A stretch of 64,000 nucleotides of DNA. It comes from a virus (Duplodnaviria > Heunggongvirae > Uroviricota > Caudoviricetes). Each line of letters opens with the position of its first letter. The stretch's first letter is position 1. The stretch covers positions 38,486-102,485 of the IMG/VR virus record IMGVR_UViG_2911215477_000001; one strand, given 5' to 3'. Below the pieces are notes generated by a model that had not been told where the DNA came from, did not search any database, and saw only the letters and a program-made list of their open reading frames with translations. Shown in pieces: positions 10,976-26,194 of this stretch. The translations under genes and the position numbers were made by a program.

Positions 10976-11001
10976 AGCGCCTACAAGAGGCGCTCTCGCT
11001 A

Positions 11002-12409: not shown

Positions 12410-12452
12410 CACAACTAATAAGGTGGTCATGTCCTTGTGGTCCCTTGGCCGC

Positions 12453-12908
12453 TTACAGGGCGACTGCGTGGATGCCGGCTTCACCGTTCATGGCGCGCTT
12501 CATCAGCTCAGCCACGAGTTCTTCGGTCGTCAGGGCGCTGACACTGGTGGTCGCTTCCACTGCCGGACCCTGGTTCGCATGGTCGTCGAAGGTCTCCAGG
12601 ACATCGAGGATCTCCTCCGCGATACCGTCGATGCGGGGCGTCACCAGGTCGTTCGGACGCTTGCTGGGCTGACCCATCACGATGGGACGCAGCAGATCCT
12701 GCAGCAGTGCCAGCTGGACGTTGCCTTCCTCGTCACCCTTGGCCTTGCGGAACTTGGCGAGCATCCCGGCGACCTGGTGGAGATACGCACCGTGCATCAG
12801 CACTTCCTCGGCGTGATGAGCCAGCTCCTGACGCAGCTCGTTCTCGGTCATGTTGCGGACCATCTCACCGTGCATCAACAACTGGTCTTTCTTCTGCTGC
12901 TCGTTCAT
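12453..12908 (-). CDS. hypothetical protein (start MNEQQKK)
   Basis: Start re-called downstream of the family-A motif at 12955-13000; RBS GAGAGAAACAGAGCC. Confidence 0.5.
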   Translation of the reverse strand: MNEQQKKDQLLMHGEMVRNMTENELRQELAHHAEEVLMHGAYLHQVAGMLAKFRKAKGDEEGNVQLALLQDLLRPIVMGQPSKRPNDLVTPRIDGIAEEILDVLETFDDHANQGPAVEATTSVSALTTEELVAELMKRAMNGEAGIHAVAL

Positions 12909-12954
12909 GGCTCTGTTTCTCTCTGTGCGCTGCGCGCTTTGTGTTTGTGTGCTT

Positions 12955-13000
12955 AGTGTATGTATGCGCTCACATATCGTCAAGCGCATACGTATGGGAT
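12955..13000. promoter_or_regulatory. family-A motif, extended palindrome GTATGTATGCGCTCACATATCGTCAAGCGCATACGTATGG
   Basis: Inverted repeat around the GCGC core. Confidence 0.5.
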
Positions 13001-13294
13001 CTACTTGGCAGTGCGTGACTCGTGGCGGTGCATGAAGACGATCAGGCCGATCCACATGACCAGGCCAATCACCCCACCCACGGCCATCATTGCATCGACC
13101 TCGCTGGTGTTCATCAGGACACAGAGGGCCAAGATGAGATAGAGGCTCAGCAGCACCACGTCCAACAGGTTGGCACCTCCCTTCTTGGCCGGCTTCCAAC
13201 CCTGTGCCATGCGGTAGACATCACCTGTGGCCTGAAAACGGGTCATGCCTGCCTCGATAGGAATGCCGGCGTACTGGTGTGCAATCACGTTCAT
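13001..13294 (-). CDS. small membrane protein (2 TM)
   Basis: The ORF-track start MTCR..MHIH includes the motif; start re-called at MNVIAHQ; hydrophobic LLSLYLILALCVL and VGGVIGLVMWIGLIVF. Confidence 0.45.
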   Translation of the reverse strand: MNVIAHQYAGIPIEAGMTRFQATGDVYRMAQGWKPAKKGGANLLDVVLLSLYLILALCVLMNTSEVDAMMAVGGVIGLVMWIGLIVFMHRHESRTAK

Positions 13295-13551
13295 AGCGTT
13301 TGCTCGCTGCGTTGTGTGTATGTGCATACATAGTAGCGCATCAGCAACAACCGACAATCGGCACGTCATAGGACTATTGGCGGCCCCTCCATGGGTTATC
13401 CATGGCTCACCCTAGGGCGGCTCCACCCAAAAAAGTGCCCCTGCGAGCGGGCAAGCTCCAGGGGCGTGGTCGAACAATAATCAGAGCCCAAAGGGAGGCC
13501 GAGGACGGGAGTCTTTGGCCCACCTACCCTGTTACTGCAGACAGGGTGATT

Positions 13552-14013
13552 TTAGTCGGTTTCGCGGAAGGGGGCCACCTTGTACTGGTCGTGGATCTGG
13601 ACGAACCAGGTCTCGGTGATGAAATCGAGGATGCTATGCACCAGGCGCAGGTCAAGCGTCCCCTGGTCCTCGTCCGTGGTCTCCTGGTGAATGCCCATCC
13701 AGTCGTTCCGGAAGGACAGAGGAAACAGGACTTTGGTGCCATTGATGGTCAGCTCCATCAGGACAATATCCGGGTCACGCATCAGATCACCATTGGACTC
13801 GCCGTAGCTGGCAATGGAGTACGTGGGCTGGCCATAGTGGTTGCTGATGACCTCGACCAACACATCCATCATGCCCTGGGACTTGAACCGCGTATTCCGG
13901 CGATGACCTTCCATCAGCAGATCGAACTGCTCATAGGCCCAGGTCATACGGCCAAAGGTTCTGTCTTGTGTGGCCAGCTGCTCGATGGCAGTGATCACTT
14001 TATGGTCCGTCAT
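13552..14013 (-). CDS. hypothetical protein
   Basis: Partial family-B cassette upstream (CCATGG x3, CAGATAGTCGG). Confidence 0.45.
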   Translation of the reverse strand: MTDHKVITAIEQLATQDRTFGRMTWAYEQFDLLMEGHRRNTRFKSQGMMDVLVEVISNHYGQPTYSIASYGESNGDLMRDPDIVLMELTINGTKVLFPLSFRNDWMGIHQETTDEDQGTLDLRLVHSILDFITETWFVQIHDQYKVAPFRETD

Positions 14014-14289
14014 GCTGTGCTCCGTTGTCAGTTGCTGCGATGAGCAAATGATGATTGTGGCGCATGACCCCGACTATCTGGGAGAGATCAGATACCTGCC
14101 CTAGGCTGGGCCATGGTTGTGCCATGGGCTCACCTGCGGTCTATCCATGGTCTGCTGATGGTTGGCCCACCGGCCCTATGGTTTGTGGCTGCTCTACGTG
14201 TATAGAGAGATAGAGATATGCACGCTTGTCCCTAGAGCCTATGGGAAAACCTATGGTCGGCCATCCATCAACCTATGGCACCTTGGCTG

Positions 14290-14560
14290 CTGGTCCACCC
14301 TAGTCCCAGTGATCATGTCCCTAGTTTTGATTAGTTATAGGGAAATATAGAACCCGTAGGCCGCCTATTTCCCAAGAATCACTGCTCAATAAACCTATTT
14401 GTTATGGCCGTCTAAATAGATACGTTTACTTTTGGCCATCCAGAACATGCTCAAAACAGCCAAAAACCATGTTGACGTACTGTTTGAGGGGTTAATGACT
14501 AATTTCCCTATGCTAATAAACATGAGGGAATGGCCAACCAGTGTGCCTAGTGCCAAGGCC
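14290..14560. other. AT-rich ORF-free tract with host-like promoter elements
   Basis: AT-rich tract, e.g. TTGACGTACTGTTTGAGGGGTTAATGACT; no coding signal. Confidence 0.4.
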
Positions 14561-14569
14561 AACCGCTCC

Positions 14570-14720
14570 CATGGTTCAACCATGGATAGACCTAGGGGAG
14601 AGTGACGGTTGGCTCATGGGATGGCCGGCTATGGGAGAGCCATGGTTGAGCAGAGGAGGTGCCAATACAGGGGAAACCATGGATAGACCATGGGCAAGCC
14701 TAGGGCCGGGTTGGCACCAC
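14570..14720. repeat. cluster of CCATGG / CCTAGG / ATCCATGG palindromic motifs
   Basis: At least 6 CCATGG and several CCTAGG within 150 nt; the same ATCCATGG motif heads the family-B cassettes. Confidence 0.5.
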
Positions 14721-15361
14721 TATCCCTATAGGGAACCAGGTCATCTGGAGCCGGGAGTATCTCTTTCTCTATGGAAGTGCCTATCTGATGCCGGAGCTAT
14801 CTGACTGACCTAGTACATGTGCTACGTAGGCCAGGATTAGGAAGACCGTGTTTGCTCCGGATGAGCGACAGCTCGGAAACTAGGCAATCTGAGAACTCAG
14901 GATATGACGCCCCCTACCCCGTGACGATGCACTGAGTAGGGACACATCCCGGCCTTCAGACTGCCTTGGGGAGTTTGACTCCCTCCCGGTGGTGATCCAC
15001 AGGGGCAACCTTCAACCTCATGCCATTGCGACAGTCACTGTTGTTCCTCGGTGCGCATGAGCCTGGGCAAGCCAGAACAGGTAACACCGTGTCACTCACC
15101 CGCCTCGCTGTCGCACCTATCGGTGACGCCCGAGTCCTGTCTGCGGGAAATCCTTCATCAGGGTCATTGCTACAAGAGCTGCCAGTGGCCGAACGTATGG
15201 GTGCCGATAAACCGCTAGCTGACCTGAGTATGTTAGCGCGTACATACCGTGGCGGGCAATGCTGGATAGAGCATGGGTCGGCCGGACTTGGGAGCGCCTG
15301 GACATGGAGGGGCCATGGGAAACCCTTGCAATATATGTGGCGCGGGCCGGCACCGTCATTT

Positions 15362-15560
15362 GCCCTTCCCTTCCACAGGCACCTCGGCTCTCCCATCCCT
15401 CTATACCCCGGCCTGTCTCTTCCCATACCCCTATGCGTAGGCCATCCCTACTGCTACTCCCCATAGCTCTCTCCCCTAGGGTGTGTGTGCTCCTCTATCC
15501 CTTCTTCCCTATACCCACAAGTCTTCTCCTGCATCCCTATAGCCGGACACAATACCGACC
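15362..15560. repeat. polypyrimidine (C/T-rich) tract with degenerate CCCTATAC-like repeats
   Basis: Roughly 200 nt of almost purely C/T plus strand. Confidence 0.5.
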
Positions 15561-15594
15561 TCGACCTGGTGCGATTCGTGTGTGTCTGTGTCGT

Positions 15595-15795
15595 TCTCTA
15601 TGCGTGGGATGAGCGCTCGTTCTTTGTATCGTTCGTGCTGCTTATCTCTATGCGAGAAACGCGCTAGATCGACGCGAGAGACATTTCCCTTATGCGAGCG
15701 CTGTGCTGCTACTCGTTCTATGCGGGGAACGTCACAGTGATCGTTTTAGCGTTCGACGATGTTGACGATATGGGTGTGTTTCTCATGCGGGAGTG
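15595..15795. repeat. five iteron-like direct repeats TCTATGCG(G/A)G
   Basis: Copies near 15598, 15656, 15690, 15720 and 15783 with 30-63 nt spacing. Confidence 0.55.
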
Positions 15796-15839
15796 TTGAT
15801 TTCGCGGAAAGCGTGTCAAGTTCCCTTTACATGTGTTGG

Positions 15840-15975
15840 CGATCGAGGCGTTTGCGAATTTAAGTTATTGATCCGGCAGGTTTATTTGGAATTTTGGTGG
15901 GTTCGATACAAATAATTTCTGTAACGGAGGGACTTAACAGATTCGTTGAGTGACCGCTTTGCAGGAATTGACCAA
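15840..15975. other. AT-rich tract (possible DNA unwinding element) next to the iterons
   Basis: gaatttaagttattgatcc..tttatttggaattttggtgggttcgatacaaataatttctg. Confidence 0.4.
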
Positions 15976-16011
15976 CTTGCGCCCTTACATCAACACCTAT
16001 AAGGCTTAAAC

Positions 16012-16386
16012 ATGAATCAACATTTCAGTAGTAACGACCCGAACCACCGCATCCAGATGGCACACGTCAAGGAGCTGTCCACCGACAAGCTCAGTGGCGA
16101 GTCCTTCAAGTACACCTTCCATGACGTGAAGAAGCTCTGGGAGGGACACTATGGCGGTCCATCGGGCTGGGCACAGAAGACCGCCAAGGAGCGCGACGAT
16201 TACCTTCAGGGATTGAAGGACTGTGCCAACGCAGTGAAGAAGATCGCGGAGATGGAGCCGGACATGGGACACAAGCGCAGCATGCTTGCTTGTTACCACG
16301 GGACCATCTGGATCTATGCCTGGATCAGCCACCTGACCGTCGACGGTCAGTTCTGCGATGACCTCTTGGACGCAGTTGGCTCCTAA
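16012..16386 (+). CDS. hypothetical protein
   Basis: Only plus-strand ORF in this region; followed by a bidirectional terminator. Confidence 0.4.
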   Translation: MNQHFSSNDPNHRIQMAHVKELSTDKLSGESFKYTFHDVKKLWEGHYGGPSGWAQKTAKERDDYLQGLKDCANAVKKIAEMEPDMGHKRSMLACYHGTIWIYAWISHLTVDGQFCDDLLDAVGS

Positions 16387-16425
16387 CCAAAAGAAAGCCC
16401 GGTCATGTGCCGGGCTTCTCTGTGT
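16387..16425. terminator. bidirectional rho-independent terminator
   Basis: AGCCCGG-tcatgtg-CCGGGCT hairpin with an A-tract 5' and TCTCTGTGT 3'; ends the long minus-strand gene array. Confidence 0.7.
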
Positions 16426-16437
16426 AAGGGTGGATGG

Positions 16438-16794
16438 TCAGTCGTAGTCTTGAACCTCGCACTGGATCGCCCTGTCGAGGATCAGTCGCATCTTGTCGCC
16501 TTCATCCCGCTCGCGGTCAGTGCCACCCTGTAGACGCTGGGAGATCAGCTTGAGCTTGTCGAAGTCCTCAGCCTCGATGCAGTAGTCGATGTAGATCCTG
16601 GTGGGTTCCCCGATTGTTGGCTCGGGTGCATCGAGTATCCGGCGAATGTCCTCGTTCGGGTCTGTCGAAAGCTCGCCCACCTTCAATAGTGCTGGGTCAT
16701 CCCAAACGCCTTGAATCCTCGCCCTGATGGCTTGAAGCTTCTCGTCCTGGCTCAGCGTCACTTGATGCTCCTTAGCTGCCCCTGTGTAAGGCAT
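16438..16794 (-). CDS. hypothetical protein
   Basis: ORF with a coupled arrangement. Confidence 0.4.
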   Translation of the reverse strand: MPYTGAAKEHQVTLSQDEKLQAIRARIQGVWDDPALLKVGELSTDPNEDIRRILDAPEPTIGEPTRIYIDYCIEAEDFDKLKLISQRLQGGTDRERDEGDKMRLILDRAIQCEVQDYD

Positions 16795-16997
16795 TCCATG
16801 TGCCCGCTCTTCCAGCCAGGCACTCCCTCTTTGTCTGCGTAGACCCGTTCGGTCCCCAGGTAGCCGTCGAACCGGACCCAGGGTGCTTCAGAGGTGCTCT
16901 GCACGACGGTTCCACACATGCCAGGTTCGATCCACTTGGGATCGTCCCGGTCGATGGACGCTACACAGACGCGATCACCTGCTTTGAACTTTACCAT
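16758..16997 (-). CDS. hypothetical small protein (KOW/SH3-like KFKAGDRVCV)
   Basis: Start ATG embedded in the upstream gene's EGRW-stop codons. Confidence 0.4.
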   Translation of the reverse strand: MVKFKAGDRVCVASIDRDDPKWIEPGMCGTVVQSTSEAPWVRFDGYLGTERVYADKEGVPGWKSGHMECLTQGQLRSIK

Positions 16998-17302
16998 CGC
17001 CCCTCCCCTGCCGCTGGCTTGAGCTTGGGAACACTGTCAGCGTCGCCATAGCTGACGTTGAGGTTCCTGACGATCTGCTCCACCACGCTGCGCTTGACCT
17101 CATGGCCGTTGGTTTTGTTGAACTCGCTGATGACCCGCTGGACGATCCAGTCGAGGTTCAACTCATGGGTCGTCTGACGAGCACGCTCCTGCACCGCCTC
17201 CTTGATCCACTCCTTCACCTCGGCCTTCGTGATGCCCAGGTCAGCAATGTGTTGGCGCAGGGCGAGCGTGATCTCCCGGCGTCCTACCTCGTCAGCCTTC
17301 AT
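16991..17302 (-). CDS. hypothetical protein ending ..GEGRW
   Basis: C-terminal tail shared with the 20.8-23.4 kb paralog family. Confidence 0.4.
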   Translation of the reverse strand: MKADEVGRREITLALRQHIADLGITKAEVKEWIKEAVQERARQTTHELNLDWIVQRVISEFNKTNGHEVKRSVVEQIVRNLNVSYGDADSVPKLKPAAGEGRW

Positions 17303-17535
17303 GCGTTCAGCGCCTTCTTGATTGCTGTCTGCACCTCACGACGGCCACGGTAGCTCGCCTCCCTGGCGATCTCCTTGAACAGTTCGGAGGCAGTGGGTGC
17401 CTTGAAGAACGTGTGGAACAGATCGTTCTCGTGCTTCCACCACGGTTCGGTGGGATTACCAGCTGGCCAGGTCTCCTTGAAACCGAGAGCCTTCATCACT
17501 TCCGGGCTGAGCTTGGGTTCGTTGGACTCACTCAT
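17299..17535 (-). CDS. hypothetical protein
   Basis: ATGA-coupled ORF. Confidence 0.4.
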   Translation of the reverse strand: MSESNEPKLSPEVMKALGFKETWPAGNPTEPWWKHENDLFHTFFKAPTASELFKEIAREASYRGRREVQTAIKKALNA

Positions 17536-18268
17536 GCTCGATCACCTGGTCATCATCGACGCGCTTGAGGATCTCGATCTTGGGCATCTCGACGGGATCG
17601 TAGGTCAGCGCGGTGTTCTTCAGCGCTTCCATGCCGGCACGTTGGATCGTCTGCACAACGTAGGCATCGACTTCCGATTTTGCGCTTTCGACCGTTTTCT
17701 CCATGTGTTCGTCGAACATGTCCGCGACGAACTTCATGTTGCCCGTCATCTGGGCGCGTGCAGTGGACGCCTTCAGCTGTAGGGCTGCCTTCTGTTTGAT
17801 GGGCAGCTTCAGCTCACCCAGCATCTTGTGCAGCTCATCCACCTCGCTGAGTGCGGTCTCCAGGCGCTTTCTGACCTCGCCCGCGAACTGCTTGGTTCGG
17901 GACTGTGGCGGTGCCAGCTCCGGGACATAGCCATTACCACCAGGCTCGCGATAGCGGAGCGTGCATTGGCTACCCATGCCTACGTTGGGGCTGGACACGA
18001 AATGCGCCCACTGGGCTTCGCTCAGATCCACCTCGATGTAGGGCTTGGTCGCTGCATGCACCCAATCGGTAGACAGGTCACGACGAATGGAGCTGCTCGC
18101 GATCCGAATACGGATGAAGTGCTGATGGTTGAAGTCCGACCCGTACAGATTGGTCATCCCACTGATGCGAGACGCTCCGATCTGCGCGTAGGCCGGGTGT
18201 TCGTAGATCAGCCCACCCATCGGGCCAGCCTCTTCACGAACGGTCGGTTCCAGGAAAATGCGCTTCAT
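17528..18268 (-). CDS. hypothetical protein
   Basis: 246-aa ORF, no recognisable motif. Confidence 0.45.
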   Translation of the reverse strand: MKRIFLEPTVREEAGPMGGLIYEHPAYAQIGASRISGMTNLYGSDFNHQHFIRIRIASSSIRRDLSTDWVHAATKPYIEVDLSEAQWAHFVSSPNVGMGSQCTLRYREPGGNGYVPELAPPQSRTKQFAGEVRKRLETALSEVDELHKMLGELKLPIKQKAALQLKASTARAQMTGNMKFVADMFDEHMEKTVESAKSEVDAYVVQTIQRAGMEALKNTALTYDPVEMPKIEILKRVDDDQVIEHE

Positions 18269-18271
18269 GGC

Positions 18272-18568
18272 TTATGCCTCTTTGCCATTGGTTTCGTTGT
18301 ACTTCGCGACACGCCAATTGACGTGCTCGGGCTGGATTTCGTCGGGGTTGGATCCGCACAGGTAGACCTGGGCCGGCTCAACCTCATTCAGGGCTTTGCC
18401 ACGCTGATGAACCAGGGTGATTTCGCTGGGCGGGAGATCCTCCACCACGTCGTCGTCGTAGTTGACGACCAGGACATCCATTGCTTCAGAGGTGGCGACA
18501 AACTGGACGACTCCAGCTTGGATCGTGACCACCACGGCGGGCAGCTTCTTCTCAGTGTCGGCGGGCAT
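18272..18568 (-). CDS. hypothetical protein (possible C-terminal half of a split vWA-like protein)
   Basis: Start MPADTEKK; see finding on 18272-18773. Confidence 0.3.
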   Translation of the reverse strand: MPADTEKKLPAVVVTIQAGVVQFVATSEAMDVLVVNYDDDVVEDLPPSEITLVHQRGKALNEVEPAQVYLCGSNPDEIQPEHVNWRVAKYNETNGKEA

Positions 18569-18773
18569 TCCAGTTCCTTCGTTGTTTCCCGCGATGCGGG
18601 TGCTTGTGTTGGTCGTTGAAATGGATCTTGGGCAGGCTGATGACCGAGTAGTCCGGCTTGCGAGGGACGACTTTGGAGAACTCGACGATCTCCACAGCTG
18701 CCTTGGCCATCGCTTCAGCAAGCCCCTTCATGGACCCGCTCAGGTCGTCGATGATCAGGATGCGGTGCTTCAC
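18552..18773 (-). CDS. hypothetical protein with MIDAS-like DxSGSM start (possible N-terminal half of a vWA-like protein)
   Basis: RILIIDDLSGSMKG. Confidence 0.3.
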   Translation of the reverse strand: MKHRILIIDDLSGSMKGLAEAMAKAAVEIVEFSKVVPRKPDYSVISLPKIHFNDQHKHPHRGKQRRNWNARRH

Positions 18774-18952
18774 TGCTCACCCCACTGCTTCTGCGGGCCG
18801 GCTTCGTCCCAGCGCATCACGAAGTTCTCCAGCCAGTCGCGCTGCTCCGAGGTCAGGTAGTCGAGCCACAGAAGCTCGTCAGCGCTGACCCAGGGGAGGC
18901 CCTGCTCCTCGCACCAGGCTTTGAACTCGTCGTAGAGGGATTGCCCGTCCAT
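18770..18952 (-). CDS. hypothetical small acidic protein
   Basis: ATGA coupling. Confidence 0.35.
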   Translation of the reverse strand: MDGQSLYDEFKAWCEEQGLPWVSADELLWLDYLTSEQRDWLENFVMRWDEAGPQKQWGEQ

Positions 18953-19212
18953 CAGTGAACCCTCACGAACTCGAAGGACTCACGGGCCGGGTTCAGCGGG
19001 CGACCCACGCGGTCATCGAAGCCATCGCAGTAGATGCGGTAGCACAGCTCACCCCGATAGTCCTTCTGGAACTCCCGGACGGTGAAGGTGAAGTCGCGGG
19101 CGATGGTGCCCATCTTCGGTTCCCAGTTCAGGTAGCGAAGCTTGCGACCTACGTTGTGCTTCATCTCCTCGGGCACGTCGTTCGGATCCACGTACAGCCC
19201 GAGATCCTTCAT
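18952..19212 (-). CDS. hypothetical protein
   Basis: Start re-called at MKDLGLY. Confidence 0.35.
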   Translation of the reverse strand: MKDLGLYVDPNDVPEEMKHNVGRKLRYLNWEPKMGTIARDFTFTVREFQKDYRGELCYRIYCDGFDDRVGRPLNPARESFEFVRVH

Positions 19213-19226
19213 CAGGGACTTGACGT

Positions 19227-19343
19227 TCACGACATGAACCTCTGGGCGACGATGTTGATGGACGCGGCGATCACGAGAGCGCTCGCGGAGTACAGGAGCA
19301 CGCACAGGGCGCGGACCAGGCGGGTTTCGTTCTGCTGGGACAT
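19227..19343 (-). CDS. small hydrophobic peptide (38 aa) missing from the ORF track
   Basis: RBS CAGGAGG 7 nt before ATG; MSQQNETRLVRALCVLLYSASALVIAASINIVAQRFMS. Confidence 0.35.
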   Translation of the reverse strand: MSQQNETRLVRALCVLLYSASALVIAASINIVAQRFMS

Positions 19344-19344
19344 G

Positions 19345-19773
19345 TCAATGAGCCTCCTGGGCGTTCGTGCGGTCTCGATAGAACTTCAGCAAGCTGTCCA
19401 CGACGTCCTCCACGTCACTCTCGGACACCTGCGGGCGCATGGATTCCACGACTTGCTCCAGCGCTTCGCGGAAGCCCTTGTCGTAGTTGTAGGCTTCGAT
19501 GGGTTCGTCCAGGTCGTCGTAGAGCGTCAGATCGAGGGGAATGGCGTCCTTGATCGCCTGCATGCAGTCGCGGGTCGTCTCGCCCTTCAGAATCGCCTGG
19601 ATGTAGTCGCAGTCTTCCTTCTCAGCGTCGCTGAGGAGATCCCATGCCACGCGCTCCCAGCTTTGATGGTTCACGGATCCATCCTTGAGCAAGGGAGTGA
19701 CCATCAGGGACTCTCCTTCATTGCTCGGACCCATCGCGTAAACCTTGCCTTCGGTGCGATAGAGGTTCTTCAT
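19345..19773 (-). CDS. hypothetical acidic protein
   Basis: Start MKNLYRTEG, ATGA coupled. Confidence 0.4.
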   Translation of the reverse strand: MKNLYRTEGKVYAMGPSNEGESLMVTPLLKDGSVNHQSWERVAWDLLSDAEKEDCDYIQAILKGETTRDCMQAIKDAIPLDLTLYDDLDEPIEAYNYDKGFREALEQVVESMRPQVSESDVEDVVDSLLKFYRDRTNAQEAH

Positions 19774-20489
19774 GCAACCTCCGGAACAAGCTTCGGACGA
19801 GCTGCGATGCGAGCTTCCTCGGCAGTGATCATTTCCATGCTCGGGGGTGCGGGGAAGCCAACGATGTCGTCCTGGAACACGCGACAGGCGATGCACGCGA
19901 GATTGGGATACTTCTCAAGCGTGGCGCGATCCTCGAAGGTGGAACGGCTGTAGACGTTCTCGATGGATTCGACTTCGCTGATCTGGTTCTTGGTCTTGAG
20001 GAAGAACGCAGAGCTACCCAGGTGGACTTCGTACTCACAGGTCTCGTCGTCGTAACCCACGATGCAGAGCTGCTGACCATTGGGAAGATCGGCGCGGACT
20101 TCGTAATCCACGACACGAGCCGGGTTGCTGTCGATGAACGAGTAGGACTTCAGCATTTCTTCCCACTGGGCATCAGTGAGAGGCGCGAACTTGGGATCCA
20201 GCAGGAACAGGAGGTCGCGGTCGAAGATCTCCTGAAGGTCGTCCTCGCAGATACCCCAGTCACGGATGTCCTGGCGGGTGTCGGCACCCTGGATGTTGAA
20301 CATGTCATCAACGTCTTCCGGAGCATCGACGGGCACGCAGTAGAGCTTCTGCTCGCCATCCACGGAGACGAGGAAGTAGTTGTAGCTCAGGCCCACGGTG
20401 CGGTAGCGGTCGGGCATCTCGACAAGGATGGCTTTGATCTTCATCGCTTGCTCGTGGACTTCTTTCACTGCTCGCTCGTACTTGGTCAT
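19770..20489 (-). CDS. hypothetical protein
   Basis: Partial family-B element (GTGCCGATAGTCGG) about 80 nt upstream. Confidence 0.45.
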   Translation of the reverse strand: MTKYERAVKEVHEQAMKIKAILVEMPDRYRTVGLSYNYFLVSVDGEQKLYCVPVDAPEDVDDMFNIQGADTRQDIRDWGICEDDLQEIFDRDLLFLLDPKFAPLTDAQWEEMLKSYSFIDSNPARVVDYEVRADLPNGQQLCIVGYDDETCEYEVHLGSSAFFLKTKNQISEVESIENVYSRSTFEDRATLEKYPNLACIACRVFQDDIVGFPAPPSMEMITAEEARIAARPKLVPEVA

Positions 20490-20784
20490 GTCTCTTCTCT
20501 CGTTGCGCGTCGTGCGCTTCTCAGTGCGAGCAGATTAAGAACGGCTCACACACCCGACTATCGGCACGTAATAGGCGCACGACGCTCTCTGTCTCGCTCT
20601 GCGCGTCGCGTGACGCTCAAGCTAGACAGTGATGTGATTTCTAGGGGAAGCGCTTAGCGCTCGTTCTACGCAGTCACAGACATCGCCCTGAAAGACGTGT
20701 CGCGCTGCGTCTCTTCTCTACCTGGTGAACCCAAGGCTGAACTGATCAGCCAATGTCACGTCATGGAAAACGTGACAAGTTGGC

Positions 20785-21459
20785 TTACCAGAGACCCTGC
20801 AGTGGGTTGACGATCACTTCGACCACCTCGGGCTCATTGAGGTAGCCAGGCCATGCCTTCCCACCCATGCTGTAGACCCGTTGGAGCACTGCTCGGGCGT
20901 CGCCATACCCAGTTGGGTTGCTCTCGACTTGCTTCATCAGTTTCTTGTTGTGGATCTGACGGGTCTCAAACTTGATGACGGGTGCCTCTACCACCGTGCA
21001 GAACGCAATGTCCTGGCCCGTGTGGTAATGCCGGTAGACCATCAGCCCACCGCCAGGGCTCGTGTAGACCGTATCGAACCCTCGACCGCGAATGTACTTC
21101 TCCAGGTTCAGCCACTTCGCCTCACCGAACTGGATCGTCACGTCGTCCGGCCTGGCCTTTGGGGCTCGGAGGAACGCTGGCATCGTCTGCCTGCCCAACT
21201 GGTAGACGCGAGCAAGCACAACACGGATGTCGTCGTGCTTCTCCGGGTCTCGCTCGATCAGGGACATGGTGTTCCCGTTGGCGACATCCCGGTGGTCGAA
21301 CTTCATCAGCGGGAAGTCGATCTTGAACCTGATCGCGAGACCCAGCTCAAGGTGACGATAGACGTTGGAGTCAATCGTCACTCCTTCCAGGGCGAACCCT
21401 TTCGCGGCAAGGAGCTTCTCGATCAGTGCCCACTCATCTTGGCCCAGGTGCAGCATCAC
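20785..21459 (-). CDS. tandem paralog family member (ends NPLQGLW)
   Basis: N-terminal W..L.EKL..GF.L block plus the C-terminal tail shared with neighbours. Confidence 0.5.
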   Translation of the reverse strand: MMLHLGQDEWALIEKLLAAKGFALEGVTIDSNVYRHLELGLAIRFKIDFPLMKFDHRDVANGNTMSLIERDPEKHDDIRVVLARVYQLGRQTMPAFLRAPKARPDDVTIQFGEAKWLNLEKYIRGRGFDTVYTSPGGGLMVYRHYHTGQDIAFCTVVEAPVIKFETRQIHNKKLMKQVESNPTGYGDARAVLQRVYSMGGKAWPGYLNEPEVVEVIVNPLQGLW

Positions 21460-21941
21460 CAGCGCCCCTCGCTCGGGTTGTCGGTCGGCTTGGGCTTCTT
21501 GAAGACGATCCTCTGGTTCTGCTCGCGATACATCCGACGTTTGTAGCGCTCCGCTTCCGTCAGCTTGGACTTGGGCTCATAGAGCGGCAGGAAGACATTC
21601 GGGTCAGCCTCCAGGAACTCCGGAATGGGCAGCTCAGCCTTGCCATACACCCAGCGCAAGGCAGCCTTGGGGTAAAGGAGCGTCTGCAGGCCGTGGGCGT
21701 CGTAGACAGCCTCAATAGCCTTGCCATTGGGACCGCCACTGGTGTCGAAGTAGACCGCGATTGAGTCCGCTGCGTCGATGCGGATCGACTTCAGCTGGAT
21801 CGTGATGTTGTCGTCCTCGTGAAAGTAGTCCTCGACCACCGACATGTTCGGGTGGATCTTGCTCTTCTTCAGGGCGAAGCCGTACTCAGCCAACTTCTCT
21901 GCGAGCTGCACCCAGTCGGCGCACATGAACTTGATTACCAT
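21456..21941 (-). CDS. tandem paralog family member (ends NPSEGRW)
   Basis: ADWVQLAEKLAEYGFAL; ATGA coupling. Confidence 0.5.
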   Translation of the reverse strand: MVIKFMCADWVQLAEKLAEYGFALKKSKIHPNMSVVEDYFHEDDNITIQLKSIRIDAADSIAVYFDTSGGPNGKAIEAVYDAHGLQTLLYPKAALRWVYGKAELPIPEFLEADPNVFLPLYEPKSKLTEAERYKRRMYREQNQRIVFKKPKPTDNPSEGRW

Positions 21942-22342
21942 TGCCCCTCCAGAGGGTTCGTCTCGACAGCCATCGACATCGTTGCGGTGGCGAATTTCAT
22001 ATCGGGTCCATCATCGAGACTGGACTCCCAGGTAGCTTCAAAGGCCAGGCGACGGACGACTTCAAAGAAGTCCTGGGCGAACTTGTCGTAGGTGTCGCGC
22101 TGCTGCGGGAACAGGAGCGTCAGATCGTGCCCGTTGATGCCATCGTTGTTGACGACCCGATGTATGACCTCAGCCGTCAGCGACACGCCTTTGAAGCTGC
22201 CGTGCTCACGCCGGAAGCTGATCGTTCCAGGCCAATCGGGGCTGGGCGCGCTCTTGAGGATCGCGAAGTGCGTGTCCTTGCAAGCAGCCTCCAGGTTCTT
22301 CCCGTTGATGCGGACTTGGAGCTTCTTGTACTTGATCACCAC
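21935..22342 (-). CDS. tandem paralog family member (ends NPLEGQW), GTG start
   Basis: Start GTG inside the upstream QW-stop codons (caGTGGTGAtc). Confidence 0.45.
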   Translation of the reverse strand: MVIKYKKLQVRINGKNLEAACKDTHFAILKSAPSPDWPGTISFRREHGSFKGVSLTAEVIHRVVNNDGINGHDLTLLFPQQRDTYDKFAQDFFEVVRRLAFEATWESSLDDGPDMKFATATMSMAVETNPLEGQW

Positions 22343-23058
22343 TGACCCTCCAGCGGGTTCGTCGGGCGTGCTGGTTCAGCAGGCTTCGCGAAGCCATAGC
22401 GCTCGCTGAACCGCTTGACCATTTCAGGGTTACGCTCCATCTGGTCCAGGCGGGCTTTCAGCTCCTCGACCTCGATCTTCTTCCTCAAGTCTTTCTCGTA
22501 AGCCGCCTTCTTGACCGCCTCAATCGAGCCCTCCTCGATCTCTCCGAACTCGTCGAAGATCATCGAGATACCCTTCATTCCACGGATCTCCGACTTCTTG
22601 CTCGGAAGGCCAATGGCTTTCGCAGCCTCTGCCAGCTCGTCGTAGATCTCCTTGGCCGGCTTGGGCTTGGGCAGATGGGTGGTCTCGTCCTTACCAGGCG
22701 AAGCCAGGCCCATCAGCTCGTGAATGCTCTTGCGCTTAGGCATAGGAATGCCGGGCGCACCGATCTTGATGAGGGCGTAATCATTCAGCGCCCTGCGCAG
22801 ATCCCTATCCGGACCCTCGTCGTAGATGTCCGGGTAGTGGATGTGCAGATCCCAGTGCTCTGTGTCTCCGCCCATCGCAGCCATTGCTGCCGAGTCGATC
22901 CGGATGTTCCGCTTGAACTCACCCGTGAACGTCGCGTAGCGCATCTGGATCTGGATGTAGCCGTCGCTCAGCTTCTCCTCCAGGATGTTGAACCCGCACT
23001 GATCAACCACAGCGCGCAGCTTCTCAAGGGAAATGTTGTATCGCGTGGTCATCACCAA
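22336..23058 (-). CDS. tandem paralog family member (ends NPLEGQW)
   Basis: SLEKLRAVVDQCGFNIL N-terminal block. Confidence 0.5.
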   Translation of the reverse strand: MVMTTRYNISLEKLRAVVDQCGFNILEEKLSDGYIQIQMRYATFTGEFKRNIRIDSAAMAAMGGDTEHWDLHIHYPDIYDEGPDRDLRRALNDYALIKIGAPGIPMPKRKSIHELMGLASPGKDETTHLPKPKPAKEIYDELAEAAKAIGLPSKKSEIRGMKGISMIFDEFGEIEEGSIEAVKKAAYEKDLRKKIEVEELKARLDQMERNPEMVKRFSERYGFAKPAEPARPTNPLEGQW

Positions 23059-23441
23059 CGTCCTGCGAGTGGGTTGGAAAGCATCTCCTGACGGGCGCGC
23101 TCAGCTGTCTCTTCCGCGAGCGCAGCAGCCTTCATCTGGAGGACTTCTCGGTTCGAATGACTGACGTCCTTCAACTTCGCGACGGCAGTGCGGTAACGGA
23201 TCGCGTTCGACTTGGGTCCGTCCAGCTCCATCGGGAGGTCAGCTTCAATGACGGTCTTGCCGTCGTACTCTTCGACGTTTGGCCAGCGGACGTCGATGTA
23301 CTTGCCGCCATGACTGCCGAAGTTGATGAGGATCTGTGTCGGATCGACGTGCTCGTACTGAACCTTGGCCCATCGCAGCACAGTGAGCAGCTGGTCATAG
23401 GTGCAGGTGACTGTCGTCCTTTGGTTATGTCGCGCCTTCAT
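23052..23441 (-). CDS. tandem paralog family member (ends NPLAGRW)
   Basis: Shared C-terminal tail. Confidence 0.45.
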   Translation of the reverse strand: MKARHNQRTTVTCTYDQLLTVLRWAKVQYEHVDPTQILINFGSHGGKYIDVRWPNVEEYDGKTVIEADLPMELDGPKSNAIRYRTAVAKLKDVSHSNREVLQMKAAALAEETAERARQEMLSNPLAGRW

Positions 23442-23623
23442 TTGCGAGGCGGAACGTATTTCTCGACCACTTCACCGATACGCTGCGTGGTCATGTTGAT
23501 TTCTACGATCACCCACGGGTATTCGCCCTTGCGCGGACGATAGGTGTGCTCGGCGGGTTGGATCCAAATGGGAGTGGCGGGACTCCGGACGGAGCTGCCG
23601 ATAAACATCGCGTGATGGTGCAT
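23438..23623 (-). CDS. hypothetical small protein (start MHHHAMF)
   Basis: RBS GGAGGAGAG; family-A motif at 23642-23659 just upstream. Confidence 0.4.
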   Translation of the reverse strand: MHHHAMFIGSSVRSPATPIWIQPAEHTYRPRKGEYPWVIVEINMTTQRIGEVVEKYVPPRK

Positions 23624-23681
23624 GTCTCTCTCCTCCGCAGGGAGCGCGCATGTATGCACATACGCACTCCCCAAGCCAGGT

Positions 23682-24113
23682 TTAGAACGCGGAGGCTTCG
23701 ATGCGACCACGCGACTCACGACGGATCACGTCGCCCAGGAGCGTCAGAACGTCCTTGTGCTTGGTGCCCTCGGCATCGTTGAAGTTGATCACTTCGTCCT
23801 GGCCGCCCTTCGTGAACTTGGCGACGGCCTTGTCCAGGATGGACTCGGCACCATTGGAGCTGTCAGCGTTGTCGCCATACAGTTCGAAGTCGGCGCGACG
23901 CAGTGCGCCCACGGTGCAGAAGCACTTCGCGTTCAGCGCTTCGGAGTGGACGCCGGTGCGACCATTGCCCTTCTTGTCGGTGGCGTAGGAGCCCTTGATC
24001 CAACGGGCCGGGTTCTTCAGGATCAGGAATGCGCCGACGAGAGCCTGGAGCTTGGCGTTCTTGAGCTTCTTCAGCTTGGCGATCTGTTCGGGCTTGAGGA
24101 TGTTCTTCGACAT
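23682..24113 (-). CDS. hypothetical protein
   Basis: 143-aa ORF. Confidence 0.4.
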   Translation of the reverse strand: MSKNILKPEQIAKLKKLKNAKLQALVGAFLILKNPARWIKGSYATDKKGNGRTGVHSEALNAKCFCTVGALRRADFELYGDNADSSNGAESILDKAVAKFTKGGQDEVINFNDAEGTKHKDVLTLLGDVIRRESRGRIEASAF

Positions 24114-24204
24114 GGTAAAACTCTCTTCTCTTCAGTGATTTATGGTTGATGGCTAGTTGAAGGACGCGACACGACCCGCCATCTGGGTCAGCGCGTTGCG
24201 GTGG

Positions 24205-24486
24205 TTACTGATACGCATGGCTGCACATCTGCTTGCCATCGGTGCCCAGGCGTGGTGTCAGGCTCTGTCCGGGGACGGAGATGTACTGGCAGCCGGTCTG
24301 CGGGTCGTTGACGATGCGAAAGCCCGCGATTTCGTTCTGGCGTTCAGCTCGTGCCTTAGCCTGGCGAGCTGCGAAGCCCTTCGGGTCTTTCCACTGCTGG
24401 TATTGCGGGATCGCAATGGCAGCCAGGATCGCGATGATCGCCACGACGATCATCAGCTCGATGAGGGTGAAGCCTTTCGCCTTCAT
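24205..24486 (-). CDS. type IV pilin-like / pseudopilin protein
   Basis: Prepilin leader and N-terminal methylation motif MKAKG|[22 protein letters not shown]; C-terminal Cys pair. Confidence 0.6.
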
Positions 24487-24815
24487 GCCTTCACCCGCTT
24501 GCCACGGTAGAAGCCAGCCGGGATGCGGCGAGCAACATTTGCGGGCTGCCAGTGGTATGCGATGCCGTCGATCACGCCGCTCTGACCAGGGAACAGCAGG
24601 CCACGGATCTTGTTGTCGTCAGCATCGAACCACTCGGGCGGCAGGTTGTAGATGCCCAGCTCGCTCTGTGCCGTCGCGATAGCCTGGTTCAGATCGACCC
24701 ACTCCTCCACCTCGGCGGGGGATTGGTCGCGATCAGCGAGCAAGTCCGCGATGTACTTGTTGCTCGCCTCGGCTGCCAGGATCAGGCGGATGGCGGTCTG
24801 CTTGGAAAGCCTCAC
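24483..24815 (-). CDS. hypothetical protein
   Basis: ATGA-coupled upstream of the pilin-like gene. Confidence 0.4.
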
Positions 24816-25009
24816 GAAGCGCTCTCCTCACTCAGGACGAAGGCTTCGACCAGCTCGTCCAGACCTTCCTGATTCGCCAGGAAGTTGATGAAGCGACCCG
24901 CGACACCATCGGTGCGCTGAATCACTGCCATCGTGCCAGCAACCTTGATCGCCTGGATCTCGGTCAGCTTCACGGTCTTGGTTGCACGAACGCCTTTCGG
25001 CATGTCCAT
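24812..25009 (-). CDS. hypothetical small protein
   Basis: Coupled ORF. Confidence 0.35.
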   Translation of the reverse strand: MDMPKGVRATKTVKLTEIQAIKVAGTMAVIQRTDGVAGRFINFLANQEGLDELVEAFVLSEESAS

Positions 25010-25017
25010 CTCCTCTC

Positions 25018-25219
25018 TCAGTTCAGGTGGTAGATCGTGTTGCGGGTCTCAGCGATCTTCTTGGCGAAGTCCACGGAGACAACGGTGCTCGTCCGGATCC
25101 ACGAGCCGCTGGGGAAGCGGTCGTCTTCGAAGACCCGTCCATGCAGAACGTGGTTGACACCGACCCGTTGAAGGGTCCAGTTCTTGATCGTGCGAACGGG
25201 CTTAGTGGAGCCGGTCACG
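25018..25219 (-). CDS. hypothetical small protein (GTG start, RBS AAGGAG)
   Basis: Start re-called from the RBS. Confidence 0.3.
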
Positions 25220-25489
25220 CTGGATCTCCTTGATGTAAAGCATCGCGTCGTCATAGGCGTCGAGGGCTTCCTCGCTCTTGTCAGCAGCGCGGGCACGACG
25301 CAGCGCCTGCAATGCCTGCTCCAGCGTGATCGTGTGCAGGTTCACTGCGCTCACGATGACCTGGTGGCGTCCGTAGAGGTTCAGCGCGCCAGTGATGACT
25401 GCGATGGTTTCGCTATCGAAGTCGCTGGTCTTGATCAGGTCGCGTGCGCTGTAGGTCGCGGTCTGTTCGAAGTTGTTTGGTAGGCTCAT
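25202..25489 (-). CDS. hypothetical protein
   Basis: Large family-A palindrome just upstream. Confidence 0.45.
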   Translation of the reverse strand: MSLPNNFEQTATYSARDLIKTSDFDSETIAVITGALNLYGRHQVIVSAVNLHTITLEQALQALRRARAADKSEEALDAYDDAMLYIKEIQRDRLH

Positions 25490-25504
25490 GTCAGGACTCG
25501 GGTT

Positions 25505-25585: not shown

Positions 25586-26194
25586 TTACGCGGCTTTCTT
25601 CGCGGACGCGGTGCGCTTTTCCTTCGCAGTCTTCACCGGGAGGTTCAGACGAGCGTTGAGGTCCGCGACCTTGCTGACCGGGAGCTGGCGATTGGCAGCC
25701 TCCGGAATCTCCACGAAGGGCTTCACTTCCGGCCAGGACTCCAGGAGTTGCTTGTAGGTGTTGAAGCCGGCCAACGCAGCTTCCACCTCCTGCAACGCCT
25801 TCGAGAAGTCCGTCTTGTAATCGCGGTCTTCAGCATCGAGGGCGTTGCAACGCGCCTCCAGCTTCGCCCCGATGCTCGTCTTCTCCAGGAAGCGGTGGCC
25901 GCTGCCATAGTGGGCGTTCACGTTGCCGGGCAAGTAGTCAGCCAGGGCGTAGTTGTGGGCGTAGCCATTGATGACCACAGACACGTTCGCGGAGACCGGC
26001 AGGAAGCCGCTCGGGAGCTGCGACATCAACTTGCGCGTCGCCTCGGGGTAGATCAGGTTGTAAAGGTCCAGCGCCAACGCATTGCGCTTCGCCTTCAGCT
26101 GCTTCGCCGTATCGCCAAAGCGATGGTCCAGCACCTTGCGAGCGATGTCCTTGCGGACGGAGATGCTCAGCTTGGCGTTCAAGTTCTTGGACAT
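25586..26194 (-). CDS. hypothetical protein
   Basis: 202-aa ORF. Confidence 0.45.
   Translation of the reverse strand: MSKNLNAKLSISVRKDIARKVLDHRFGDTAKQLKAKRNALALDLYNLIYPEATRKLMSQLPSGFLPVSANVSVVINGYAHNYALADYLPGNVNAHYGSGHRFLEKTSIGAKLEARCNALDAEDRDYKTDFSKALQEVEAALAGFNTYKQLLESWPEVKPFVEIPEAANRQLPVSKVADLNARLNLPVKTAKEKRTASAKKAA

What the first reader, a model, noticed from the sequence alone, without database searches (positions are those of the whole stretch)
16991..23441. Tandem paralog family (at least 6 genes) with a conserved C-terminal tail ..NP(L)EG(Q/R)W whose codons embed the next gene's SD and start
Genes 20785..21459, 21456..21941, 21935..22342, 22336..23058 and 23052..23441 end with NPLQGLW, NPSEGRW, NPLEGQW, NPLEGQW and NPLAGRW; 16991..17302 ends GEGRW. 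Three of them also share an N-terminal block (ADWVQLAEKLAEYGFAL / DEWALIEKLLAAKGFAL / SLEKLRAVVDQCGFNIL), so they are true paralogs arrayed head-to-tail. In most copies the tail codons CTGGAGGG(T/G)CA(A/G)TGGT(A/G)A contain a GGAGG Shine-Dalgarno and the ATG/GTG of the next cistron (QW* overlapping MV), which is an elegant translational-coupling device. The last copy (20785) keeps the tail with no downstream gene. This suggests the peptide itself is also functional, perhaps a C-terminal tag for packaging, localisation or proteolysis. Diversified tandem paralog arrays in phages are often anti-defence or host-range determinants.
Basis: seen in the sequence. Interest (0 to 1): 0.75.

Follow-up and report, generated by a model that had tools for sequence, protein, structure and literature searches.

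The report
Shared C-terminal tail in phage gene array
Five neighbouring small genes of unknown function in a phage-like region of the Dyella telluris chromosome all end in the same seven-residue tail (N-P-L/S-x-G-x-W), whose codons also carry the ribosome-binding site and start codon of the next gene; comparison with the one known relative suggests the tail peptide itself is under selection, but its function is untested.

Summary
Five contiguous minus-strand genes (23441 to 20785) end in NPLAGRW, NPLEGQW, NPLEGQW, NPSEGRW and NPLQGLW. No other open frame in the window ends this way.

- **Dual use of the tail.** The tail codons carry GGAGG plus an overlapping ATG or GTG for the next gene at most junctions.
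- **The sixth gene (16991).** It shares only GEGRW and the junction layout, so it is not a full member.
- **Paralogy is shown only in part.** g20785 is an internal duplication, and g21456 is related to its two halves. g21935, g22336 and g23052 share nothing significant beyond the tail.
- **The family is very rare.** Among about 15 billion proteins it occurs in only two genomes.
- **Evidence from the relative (L004).** The array and all tails are conserved. All four nucleotide differences within the five tails are synonymous. The terminal gene has no downstream cistron and its upstream segment is not alignable, yet it keeps the tail. In g22336 the tail ends a region evolving almost neutrally (dN/dS 0.9).

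The ribosome-binding site and start codon therefore do not fully explain N, P, L, G and W. My best reading is a junction cassette inherited by duplication that also encodes a C-terminal docking peptide. The function of the proteins and of the tail is unknown. Interest is moderate.

The parts
23052..23441 (-). Gene 1 of the array (129 aa), ending SNPLAGRW. Its tail codons carry a weak Shine-Dalgarno sequence (GCAGGA) and the TTG/GTG/ATG start cluster of gene 2.
   Evidence: The L004 ortholog is 98% identical, dN/dS 0.08.
22336..23058 (-). Gene 2 (238-240 aa depending on the start), ending ARPTNPLEGQW. The C-terminal half evolves fast, but the last 11 codons are invariant at the protein level.
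   Evidence: dN/dS is 0.36 for codons 1-100 and 0.90 for codons 101-226; the last 11 codons have dN 0 and dS 0.29.
21935..22342 (-). Gene 3 (134-135 aa), ending ETNPLEGQW.
   Evidence: The ortholog is 87% identical, dN/dS 0.16.
21456..21941 (-). Gene 4 (161 aa), ending TDNPSEGRW. Its N-terminal ~112 residues are homologous to the domains of gene 5.
   Evidence: z 4.9; independent profile, E 0.0078, end-to-end alignment. dN/dS 0.15.
20785..21459 (-). Gene 5 (224 aa), the terminal gene, ending VNPLQGLW. It consists of two tandem copies of the ~105-aa domain (21148-21459 and 20812-21147). No cistron follows it.
   Evidence: Internal duplication z 28. The L004 ortholog has one domain (121 aa) and the same tail.
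22328..22362 (-). Junction cassette between genes 2 and 3: ACGAACCCGCTGGAGGGTCAGTGGTGATCAAGTAC. It reads TNPLEGQW-stop in the upstream frame and contains GGAGG plus GTG GTG ATC AAG (MVIK) for the next gene.
21927..21961 (-). Junction cassette between genes 3 and 4: ACGAACCCTCTGGAGGGGCAATGGTAATCAAGTTC. It matches the cassette at 22328-22362 at 30 of 35 positions, although the gene bodies are unrelated in sequence.
20788..20808 (-). Terminal tail codons AAC CCA CTG CAG GGT CTC TGG. The Shine-Dalgarno sequence is lost (CAGGG) and no start codon overlaps. N, P, L, G and W are kept.
   Evidence: Two synonymous differences from L004. The flanks on both sides are not alignable, and the indel breakpoint lies at C|AACCC.
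16991..17302 (-). Outlying gene (103 aa) ending GEGRW. Its junction GGAGGGGCGATGGTAA is nearly identical to the one at 21941, but it lacks the N-P part of the tail.
16758..16997 (-). Downstream partner of the 16997 junction (79 aa, MVKFKAGDRV...). It is not called in the NCBI annotation.
   Evidence: It is conserved in L004 at 7451-7705, dN/dS 0.13.
20742..20791 (-). Strong hairpin beginning at the stop codon of gene 5. It probably marks the end of the transcription unit.
   Evidence: A hairpin with the same GTCACG/CGTGAC core, but a much longer stem, is present in L004.

Best explanation
**What it is.** The five genes form the distal end of a long minus-strand block of replication and nucleotide-metabolism genes in a phage-like region of Dyella telluris. 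They are small genes confined to this lineage, packed with 1-7-nt overlaps. They share a 24-35-nt junction cassette that most likely spread by tandem duplication of a gene unit.

**How the cassette works.** It has two uses.
- As mRNA, it supplies GGAGG and an ATG or GTG that overlaps the upstream stop codon. A ribosome finishing one gene is therefore placed on the next start (translational coupling, inferred from the layout).
- Read in the upstream frame, it encodes the extreme C-terminus N-P-(L/S)-x-G-x-W.

**Which residues are explained by what.** The Glu (GAG) and the residue before Trp follow from the Shine-Dalgarno sequence and the start codon. N, P, L, G and W appear to be kept for the peptide's own sake.

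**Most likely function.** The tail is a short C-terminal docking motif. N-P-x-E fits a helix N-capping box and Gly fits a C-cap, which would present the terminal Trp and the carboxylate. This would tether five otherwise different proteins to one common host or phage partner, for recruitment, localisation or timed turnover.

**Shown versus inferred.**
- Shown: the tails, the overlaps, partial paralogy, and the conservation pattern.
- Inferred: coupling, duplication as the origin of all five genes, and any docking function.
For: **Uniqueness and layout**
- The tails and junctions are unique to the array.
- Other GGAGG ribosome-binding sites in the window have no AACCC upstream.

**Real, related genes**
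- g20785 is a duplicated domain and g21456 is its homolog.
- The genes are under purifying selection, dN/dS 0.08-0.16.

**Conservation pattern in the relative L004**
- It keeps all five tails.
- The five tails differ at 4 nucleotides, all synonymous. Tail dS is about 0.25 (pooled over six tails), similar to the gene bodies at 0.14-0.56, while dN within the five NP tails is 0.
- In g22336 the last 11 codons are invariant, although the preceding 126 codons have dN/dS 0.90.

**The terminal gene**
- It has no downstream cistron and has lost the Shine-Dalgarno sequence, yet it keeps NPLxGxW in both genomes.
- W and L004 differ there by a 346-nt versus 37-nt replacement whose right breakpoint is exactly the first tail codon.

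**Variation among copies**
- Among paralogs and orthologs the Pro and Gly wobble bases vary freely. Leu is CTG, CTC or TTG.

**Against an RNA structure**
- No junction folds better than shuffled sequence.
- The small CCC/GGG hairpin is not conserved in L004.
Against: - Only two genomes exist, so the counts are small: 4 synonymous versus 0 nonsynonymous differences.
- An RNA- or DNA-level site (AACCC...GG...TGGTRA) would leave the same wobble pattern, because its constrained bases fall on first and second codon positions.
- In the terminal copy, the TGG codon may pair in the base of the downstream hairpin in both genomes. This gives Trp a possible non-peptide reason to persist there.
- The cassette also conserves the first codons of the next gene (MVIK), which a peptide tag does not explain.
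- No partner, no known motif and no confident structure is available.
- Common descent of three of the five genes is not demonstrable.
Confidence: 0.5

Rival explanations
1. The cassette works only at the nucleotide level. It would be an extended translation-initiation or coupling element, or the binding site of a translational regulator that co-controls the array. The conserved peptide would be a by-product of dual coding and shared ancestry. This is functionally similar to the start-associated sequences of Cluster K mycobacteriophages.
For: - GGAGG and the start codon lie inside the tail at four junctions.
- Conservation runs past the stop codon into the first 4-5 codons of the next gene (ATCAAGT).
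- The invariant bases AACCC, GG and TGGTRA are compatible with a nucleic-acid site.
- SAS elements likewise contain a Shine-Dalgarno core plus conserved positions that 16S rRNA pairing does not explain (PMC3203893).
Against: - The terminal copy has no gene to regulate and has lost the Shine-Dalgarno sequence, yet it is preserved in both genomes with only synonymous changes.
- The Leu codon changes at all three positions (CTG, CTC, TTG) while staying Leu.
- No RNA structure is detected.
- The motif is absent from other ribosome-binding sites of the same genome.
Confidence: 0.3
2. The repeated junction is mainly a recombination substrate. It would be a short portable boundary that lets gene cassettes be gained, lost or swapped while keeping expression signals, like the PeSL cassettes of T4-type phages.
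For: - The only structural difference between the two arrays (346 nt versus 37 nt in the terminal gene) has one breakpoint exactly at the 5' edge of the tail.
- Two junctions are 30/35 identical between otherwise unrelated gene bodies.
- PeSL elements flank variable genes of unknown function and mark indel endpoints (PMC2839356).
Against: - Only one breakpoint has been observed, and the other end of that event is not at a repeat.
- 24-35 nt with mismatches is short for homologous recombination.
- Gene order and content of the array are otherwise identical in the two genomes.
- There is no promoter or stem-loop component.
- This explains persistence less well than selection does, and it is not exclusive of the other readings.
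Confidence: 0.1
3. The tail acts as a nascent peptide inside the ribosome. It would slow termination at the overlapping stop codon and so promote re-initiation on the next start, in the manner of TnaC-, SecM- or 2A-like peptides.
For: - The conserved residues are the last seven, which lie in the tunnel next to the peptidyl-transferase centre at termination.
- There is a superficial likeness to ExNPG in 2A peptides.
- Stop and start codons overlap.
Against: - No known arrest or StopGo consensus is present: no NPGP, and no Pro at the stop codon.
- The terminal gene keeps the tail without anything to re-initiate.
- This is speculative.
Confidence: 0.05

Closest known systems
Start-associated sequences (SAS) of Cluster K mycobacteriophages (Pope et al. 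2011, PMC3203893)
   Same: Both are short, asymmetric repeats specific to one phage lineage. Both sit just upstream of start codons of non-structural genes from different protein families. Both contain the Shine-Dalgarno core plus conserved positions that 16S rRNA pairing does not explain, and both sometimes overlap the upstream stop codon.
   Different: - The consensus differs: GGGATAGGAGCCC versus AACCCNCTGGAGGGNCARTGGTRA.
- SAS occur 11-19 times, dispersed over half a genome. This motif is confined to five adjacent gene ends.
- This motif is read as a conserved C-terminal peptide, and it persists where no start codon follows.
PeSL mobile regulatory cassettes of T4-type phages (Arbiol et al. 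2010, PMC2839356)
   Same: Both are repeated boundary elements that flank small variable genes of unknown function and coincide with indel endpoints between close relatives.
   Different: - PeSLs are intergenic units made of an early promoter and a stem-loop. Here there is no promoter-like site and no stable structure.
- This element lies inside coding sequence.
C-terminal docking tails of phage and bacterial replication proteins (SSB C-terminal tip DDDIPF; acidic tails of T7 gp2.5 and gp4 ending in Phe). From my own knowledge, not tested here.
   Same: In both cases a very short peptide at the extreme C-terminus ends in an aromatic residue and, in some members, follows a flexible linker (the Pro/Lys-rich stretches in g21456 and g22336). 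The genes lie in a replication-gene neighbourhood.
   Different: - There is no sequence resemblance: this tail is not acidic and has the N-P...G...W pattern.
- The partner is unknown.
- The tail is carried by five different proteins of unknown function rather than by a hub protein.
Ordinary translationally coupled operon junctions (ATGA, TGATG overlaps with the Shine-Dalgarno sequence inside the upstream gene)
   Same: The Shine-Dalgarno sequence is embedded in the upstream 3' coding end and the stop and start codons overlap. This is known to bias C-terminal residues toward G, E and R.
   Different: - The 7-nt RTGGTRA overlap is used repeatedly and only here in the window.
- Conservation extends 9-14 nt upstream of the Shine-Dalgarno sequence, and it remains at a gene end with no downstream gene.

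Membership tests
   - Met only for g20785 N-half versus C-half (z 28), g20785N versus g21456 (z 4.9), and a profile built without g21456 that retrieves it at E 0.0078.
- g22336, g21935, g23052 and g16991 against that family give hhalign probabilities of 0.2%, 0.7%, 0.3% and 0.05%.
- phmmer finds nothing at E below 0.3.
   - The AlphaFold2 models have pLDDT 55.6 (g21456) and 45.8 (g22336).
- Both begin with a helix at about residues 7-19 followed by three strands at about 22-55.
- This is suggestive, but the confidence is too low to rely on.
   Five contiguous co-oriented genes share the NP..G.W tail and junction.
Start-associated sequences (Cluster K mycobacteriophages) | 13-bp consensus GGGATAGGAGCCC | tested here: not met
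   The junction sequences are AACCCNCTGGAGGGNCARTGGTRA. The SAS consensus is taken from PMC3203893.
Start-associated sequences (Cluster K mycobacteriophages) | Many dispersed copies (11-19) upstream of genes across the non-structural half of the genome | tested here: not met
   The other GGAGG-type ribosome-binding sites listed for the 64-kb window show no conserved upstream flank. The motif is confined to the array.
Start-associated sequences (Cluster K mycobacteriophages) | Placed 3-7 bp upstream of the start codon and containing the Shine-Dalgarno core | tested here: met
   GGAGG lies 4-7 nt before the ATG or GTG at 22342, 21941 and 16997.
PeSL cassettes (T4-type phages) | Early promoter plus stem-loop terminator unit between genes | tested here: not met
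   There are no promoter-like sites in 15500-25500. The junctions fold no better than shuffles.
2A/StopGo or known arrest peptides | D(V/I)ExNPGP, or a TnaC/SecM-type consensus ending in Pro at the stall site | tested here: not met
   The tails read NP(L/S)xGxW followed by a stop codon, with no NPGP and no terminal Pro. The consensus sequences are from my own knowledge.
C-terminal docking tails (SSB-Ct type) | Demonstrated binding of the tail to a partner pocket | not testable with these tools
   This needs pull-downs or complex prediction against the host proteome.
Any curated protein family (Pfam, PHROGs, NCBIfam, PADLOC) | A profile hit above threshold | tested here: not met
   The array proteins have no qualifying hits. 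A Csp-like match at 16 bits against a cutoff of 147 was disregarded.

The most novel reading that the evidence does not exclude
The 24-35-nt junction is a portable dual-purpose module. In one short stretch it gives any upstream open reading frame a C-terminal targeting peptide (NPxxGxW-COOH) recognised by a single host or phage receptor, and it gives the downstream frame its ribosome-binding site and start codon. The phage could then assemble and diversify a set of unrelated effector proteins that are automatically co-expressed and sent to the same target. This way of building tagged effector arrays has not been described for phages.
Probability: 0.25. Interest if true: 0.75.

Novelty: new variant of a known kind. 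Interest (0 to 1): 0.5.

Why it matters
**If the tail is a docking or turnover signal.** It would be a new short linear motif in phage biology. It would also give a practical handle: a seven-residue peptide could be used to fish out the shared partner of five otherwise uncharacterisable proteins of unknown function.

**As a case of dual coding.** It is a clean natural example in which the constraints of a ribosome-binding site and start codon can be separated from the constraints on a peptide. One copy, the terminal gene, carries only the peptide constraint.

**If the tail is only a junction element.** It is then a local curiosity of one rare phage lineage. Its main use would be as a caution that ribosome-binding sites embedded in coding sequence can mimic conserved protein motifs.

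Tried and rejected
**Structural and recoding ideas**
- *Small hairpin (ACCC-N6-GGGU) hiding the Shine-Dalgarno sequence.* None of the six junctions folds better than shuffled sequence (z from -0.3 to +1.2). The pairing is not kept in L004.
- *Frameshift fusion of neighbouring genes.* No X XXY YYZ slippery site precedes the stop codons (read directly).
- *A genome-wide motif like the start-associated sequences.* Rejected.

**Searches for more relatives**
- No match in INPHARED phages, by DNA or tblastn.
- No match in IMG/VR, by DNA motif or two protein profiles. A neighbour-gene search returned two non-syntenic loci.
- No match in GTDB genomes.
- A motif scan of JGI metagenomes gave one hit that does not end an open frame of at least 60 aa, so it is a chance match.
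- In the 5.8-billion-protein word-index search, g20785 and g23052 returned only their own 90%-identity clusters, and g22336 returned one homolog, from the L004 contig.
- An exhaustive HMMER search of 1.84 billion representatives gave only two hits, both from this lineage.
- Cluster look-up confirms only two source genomes.

**Structure route to function**
- Both AlphaFold2 models are of low confidence.
- Foldseek against viral and PDB libraries gave nothing below E 0.06. The Ugi and DsbG entries in those lists are noise.

**Other**
- A weak cold-shock-domain match to the second half of g20785 (16 bits against a cutoff of 147) was rejected.
- Other frames ending G.W (6948, 8251, 34197) look like non-coding frames by their composition and have no junction likeness.

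Full report
**Source and setting**

The window matches Dyella telluris chromosome CP060412.1, positions about 103-167 kb. The minus strand carries a long phage-type block: DNA polymerase, SbcCD-like nuclease, a UvsX-like recombinase, both ribonucleotide reductase subunits, thymidylate synthase and an Nmad5 protein.

This block runs down into a stretch of small genes of unknown function. A strong terminator-like hairpin lies at 16418-16394. The nearest isolated phages, Stenotrophomonas phages ANB28 and BUCTxx99, share only 67% amino-acid identity in the reductase. They have no DNA or protein match to the region of the finding.

**Checking the observation**

The six gene ends are exactly as reported:

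| Gene (stop coordinate) | C-terminal residues | Tail codons and stop |
|---|---|---|
| g23052 | ...SNPLAGRW | AAC CCA CTC GCA GGA CGT TGG TGA |
| g22336 | ...TNPLEGQW | AAC CCG CTG GAG GGT CAG TGG TGA |
| g21935 | ...TNPLEGQW | AAC CCT CTG GAG GGG CAA TGG TAA |
| g21456 | ...DNPSEGRW | AAC CCG AGC GAG GGG CGC TGG TGA |
| g20785 | ...VNPLQGLW | AAC CCA CTG CAG GGT CTC TGG TAA |
| g16991 | ...AAGEGRW | (no N-P) |

- Among 927 stop-to-stop frames of at least 40 aa, NP....W or G.W at the end occurs in these genes plus four frames that look like non-coding frames.
- The DNA consensus has no match in 100 shuffles.
- The 7-nt stop/start overlap RTGGTRA between two long frames occurs only at 23058, 22342, 21941 and 16997.
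- GGAGG lies 4-7 nt before the start at 22342, 21941 and 16997. The junction at 21459 has GAGGGG with a GTGA or TGATG overlap. The junction at 23058 has only GCAGGA.
- Other GGAGG ribosome-binding sites in the window show no conserved flank.
- DNA similarity between junctions is limited to about 24-35 nt. Two junctions (22362-22328 and 21961-21927) match at 30 of 35 positions, including the first codons of the next gene (MVIK). The gene bodies do not align.

**Are they paralogs?**

With the last eight residues removed, shuffle-calibrated local alignment gives these results:
- The two halves of g20785 are clearly related (z 28).
- The N-terminal half of g20785 and g21456 are related (z 4.9).
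- No other pair, including the unrelated neighbour genes used as controls, exceeds z 2.8.

Further tests agree:
- A profile built without g21456 retrieves it as the best non-self hit, aligned end to end, at E 0.0078.
- Profile-profile comparison of that family with g22336, g21935, g23052 and g16991 (each paired with its ortholog) gives probabilities below 1%.
- phmmer finds nothing.
- AlphaFold2 models of g21456 and g22336 are poor (pLDDT 55.6 and 45.8). They show the same opening order, a helix at about 7-19 followed by three strands.
- Fold searches returned nothing significant.

Paralogy is therefore demonstrated for two genes (three domain copies). It is plausible but unproven for the rest. 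g16991 is not a member of the NP-tail set.

**Distribution**

The proteins have no Pfam, PHROG, NCBIfam or PADLOC family.

- The word-index search of 5.8 billion proteins returned only the proteins themselves and one homolog of g22336 (68% identity).
- An exhaustive HMMER scan of 1.84 billion representatives with the domain profile found only two proteins, both from this lineage.
- Cluster look-up shows just two sources: the Dyella genome and a 63.6-kb contig from the Logan assembly of run SRR11658448.
- Scans of IMG/VR, GTDB genomes and JGI metagenomes found no further relative. The single metagenome hit to the motif does not end a gene.

**What the relative shows**

Locus L004 carries the same array in the same order, with proteins of 129, 239, 133, 161 and 121 aa, and all five tails.

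- **Real genes.** dN/dS is 0.08 for g23052, 0.16 for g21935 and 0.15 for g21456.
- **Tail substitutions.** Inside the five tails (35 codons) there are four nucleotide differences, all synonymous: GGT/GGG, CTG/TTG, GGT/GGC and CTC/CTT. Tail dS is about 0.25 (pooled over the six tails), like the gene bodies at 0.14-0.56, while dN within the five NP tails is 0.
- **g22336.** Codons 101-226 evolve almost neutrally (dN/dS 0.90). The last 11 codons (ARPTNPLEGQW) have no amino-acid change, although eight consecutive replaced codons lie just upstream. The Shine-Dalgarno sequence and start codon account for GAG-GGN-CAR-TGG but not for ARPTNPL.
- **The terminal gene.** In L004 it has one domain; in the window it has two. 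The sequences align up to ...APK, then 346 nt in the window face 37 unrelated nt in L004. Alignment resumes exactly at C|AACCC, the first tail codon, and runs through the stop codon plus GCC.
- **No cistron to couple.** The terminal gene has CAGGG instead of GGAGG and no overlapping start. The next gene is 296 nt away, beyond a strong hairpin.

A tail that survives a rearrangement and drifts only at synonymous sites, with nothing to couple, argues that the peptide is selected. This is roughly 0 observed against about 4 expected nonsynonymous differences at the neutral rate. That estimate is my own inference from small numbers.

**Limits of that argument**

- There are only two genomes.
- The invariant bases (AACCC, GG, TGGTRA) fall on first and second codon positions, so a nucleic-acid site would look the same.
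- In both genomes the terminal UGGU can pair at the base of the downstream hairpin, with a G-U to G-C change in the partner. This could protect the Trp codon for RNA reasons.
- The cassette also conserves the head of the next gene.
- I found no RNA structure at the junctions, and the CCC/GGG mini-hairpin is not kept in L004.

**Mechanism I commit to**

A gene unit that began with a VIKF-type strand and ended in ...NPLEGQW was duplicated in tandem. The gene bodies diverged, some beyond recognition and one almost neutrally. The junction was held by two overlapping constraints:

- The mRNA constraint (GGAGG, spacer, RTG, stop codon) gives tight translational coupling of the five cistrons. This is inferred from the layout.
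- The peptide constraint keeps N-P-(L/S)-x-G-x-W at the free C-terminus.

N-P-x-E is a classical helix N-cap pattern and Gly is a C-cap, so the tail may form one capped turn that presents Trp and the carboxylate. Pro/Lys-rich linkers precede it in g21456 and g22336. I therefore favour a shared docking motif that brings all five proteins to one partner, for recruitment or timed turnover. My confidence is about 0.5.

**Rival explanations**
- A purely nucleotide-level initiation or regulatory element: 0.3.
- A recombination boundary similar to the T4-type PeSL cassettes: 0.1, and not exclusive of the others.
- A nascent-peptide effect on termination: 0.05.

**Comparison with known systems**

- **Start-associated sequences of Cluster K mycobacteriophages.** This is the closest described element: a repeat containing a Shine-Dalgarno core, with extra conserved bases, placed before the starts of unrelated non-structural genes (PMC3203893). 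This motif fails the SAS consensus and the dispersed-copy criterion, and it is read as protein.
- **PeSL cassettes** (PMC2839356). They share the boundary and indel association but are promoter plus stem-loop units, which are absent here.
- **C-terminal docking tails such as the SSB tip.** They are a functional analogy only.

I rate the finding a new variant of a known kind, with moderate interest (0.5). It is real, tidy and testable, but it is confined to one rare lineage and has no functional evidence.

Noticed in passing
window 16758-16997 (-): A 79-aa open reading frame (MVKFKAGDRVCVASIDRDDPKW...) starts in the 7-nt overlap with g16991. It is absent from the NCBI gene calls for this record. 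It is conserved in L004 (7451-7705) with dN/dS 0.13, so it is probably a missed gene.
   Followed up: partly
window 20490-20791 (-): The 296-nt spacer after the array starts with a strong hairpin at the stop codon. The next ~250 nt are about 95% identical to L004, more conserved than some of the neighbouring genes. The spacer folds far better than shuffled sequence (z -4.9) and has no Rfam match. It may be a structured 5' leader, a regulatory RNA or a promoter region for the next operon.
   Followed up: partly
L004 3350-3440 (+): At the position of the window's short hairpin, the relative has an AT-rich insertion that forms a perfect ~25-bp stem flanked by the same GTCACG/CGTGAC core (z -7.2). 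It could be a small mobile palindromic element or an extended terminator.
   Followed up: partly
window 20785-21459 (-) versus L004 2984-3349: The terminal gene has two ~105-aa domain copies in the window, about 30% identical to each other, but one copy in the relative. The copies are far more diverged than the two genomes are from each other. The difference is therefore a later loss, gain or replacement, not a recent duplication.
   Followed up: yes
window 22336-22756 (-), C-terminal half of g22336: This half evolves at dN/dS about 0.9 between the two genomes, against 0.36 for the N-terminal 100 codons. Selection is either relaxed or diversifying.
   Followed up: yes
window 24205-24486 (-): A 93-aa protein has a prepilin-type N-terminal methylation motif ([27 protein letters not shown]; PF07963 in the precomputed hits). 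This is a pilin-like protein encoded among the phage's small early genes.
   Followed up: no
window 25586-26194 (-): An Nmad5 (nucleotide modification associated domain 5) protein lies next to ribonucleotide reductase and thymidylate synthase genes. This hints that the phage may modify its DNA bases.
   Followed up: no
window ~10000-16000: G+C is lower here (0.53 against about 0.59-0.60). Between about 15000 and 16000 the open frames look non-coding. No tRNA genes were found anywhere in the window.
   Followed up: no
L004 10961-11580 (+): The relative carries a YefM/YoeB-type antitoxin-toxin pair (PF02604, PF06769) downstream of the region it shares with the window. I did not check whether the window has it.
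   Followed up: no
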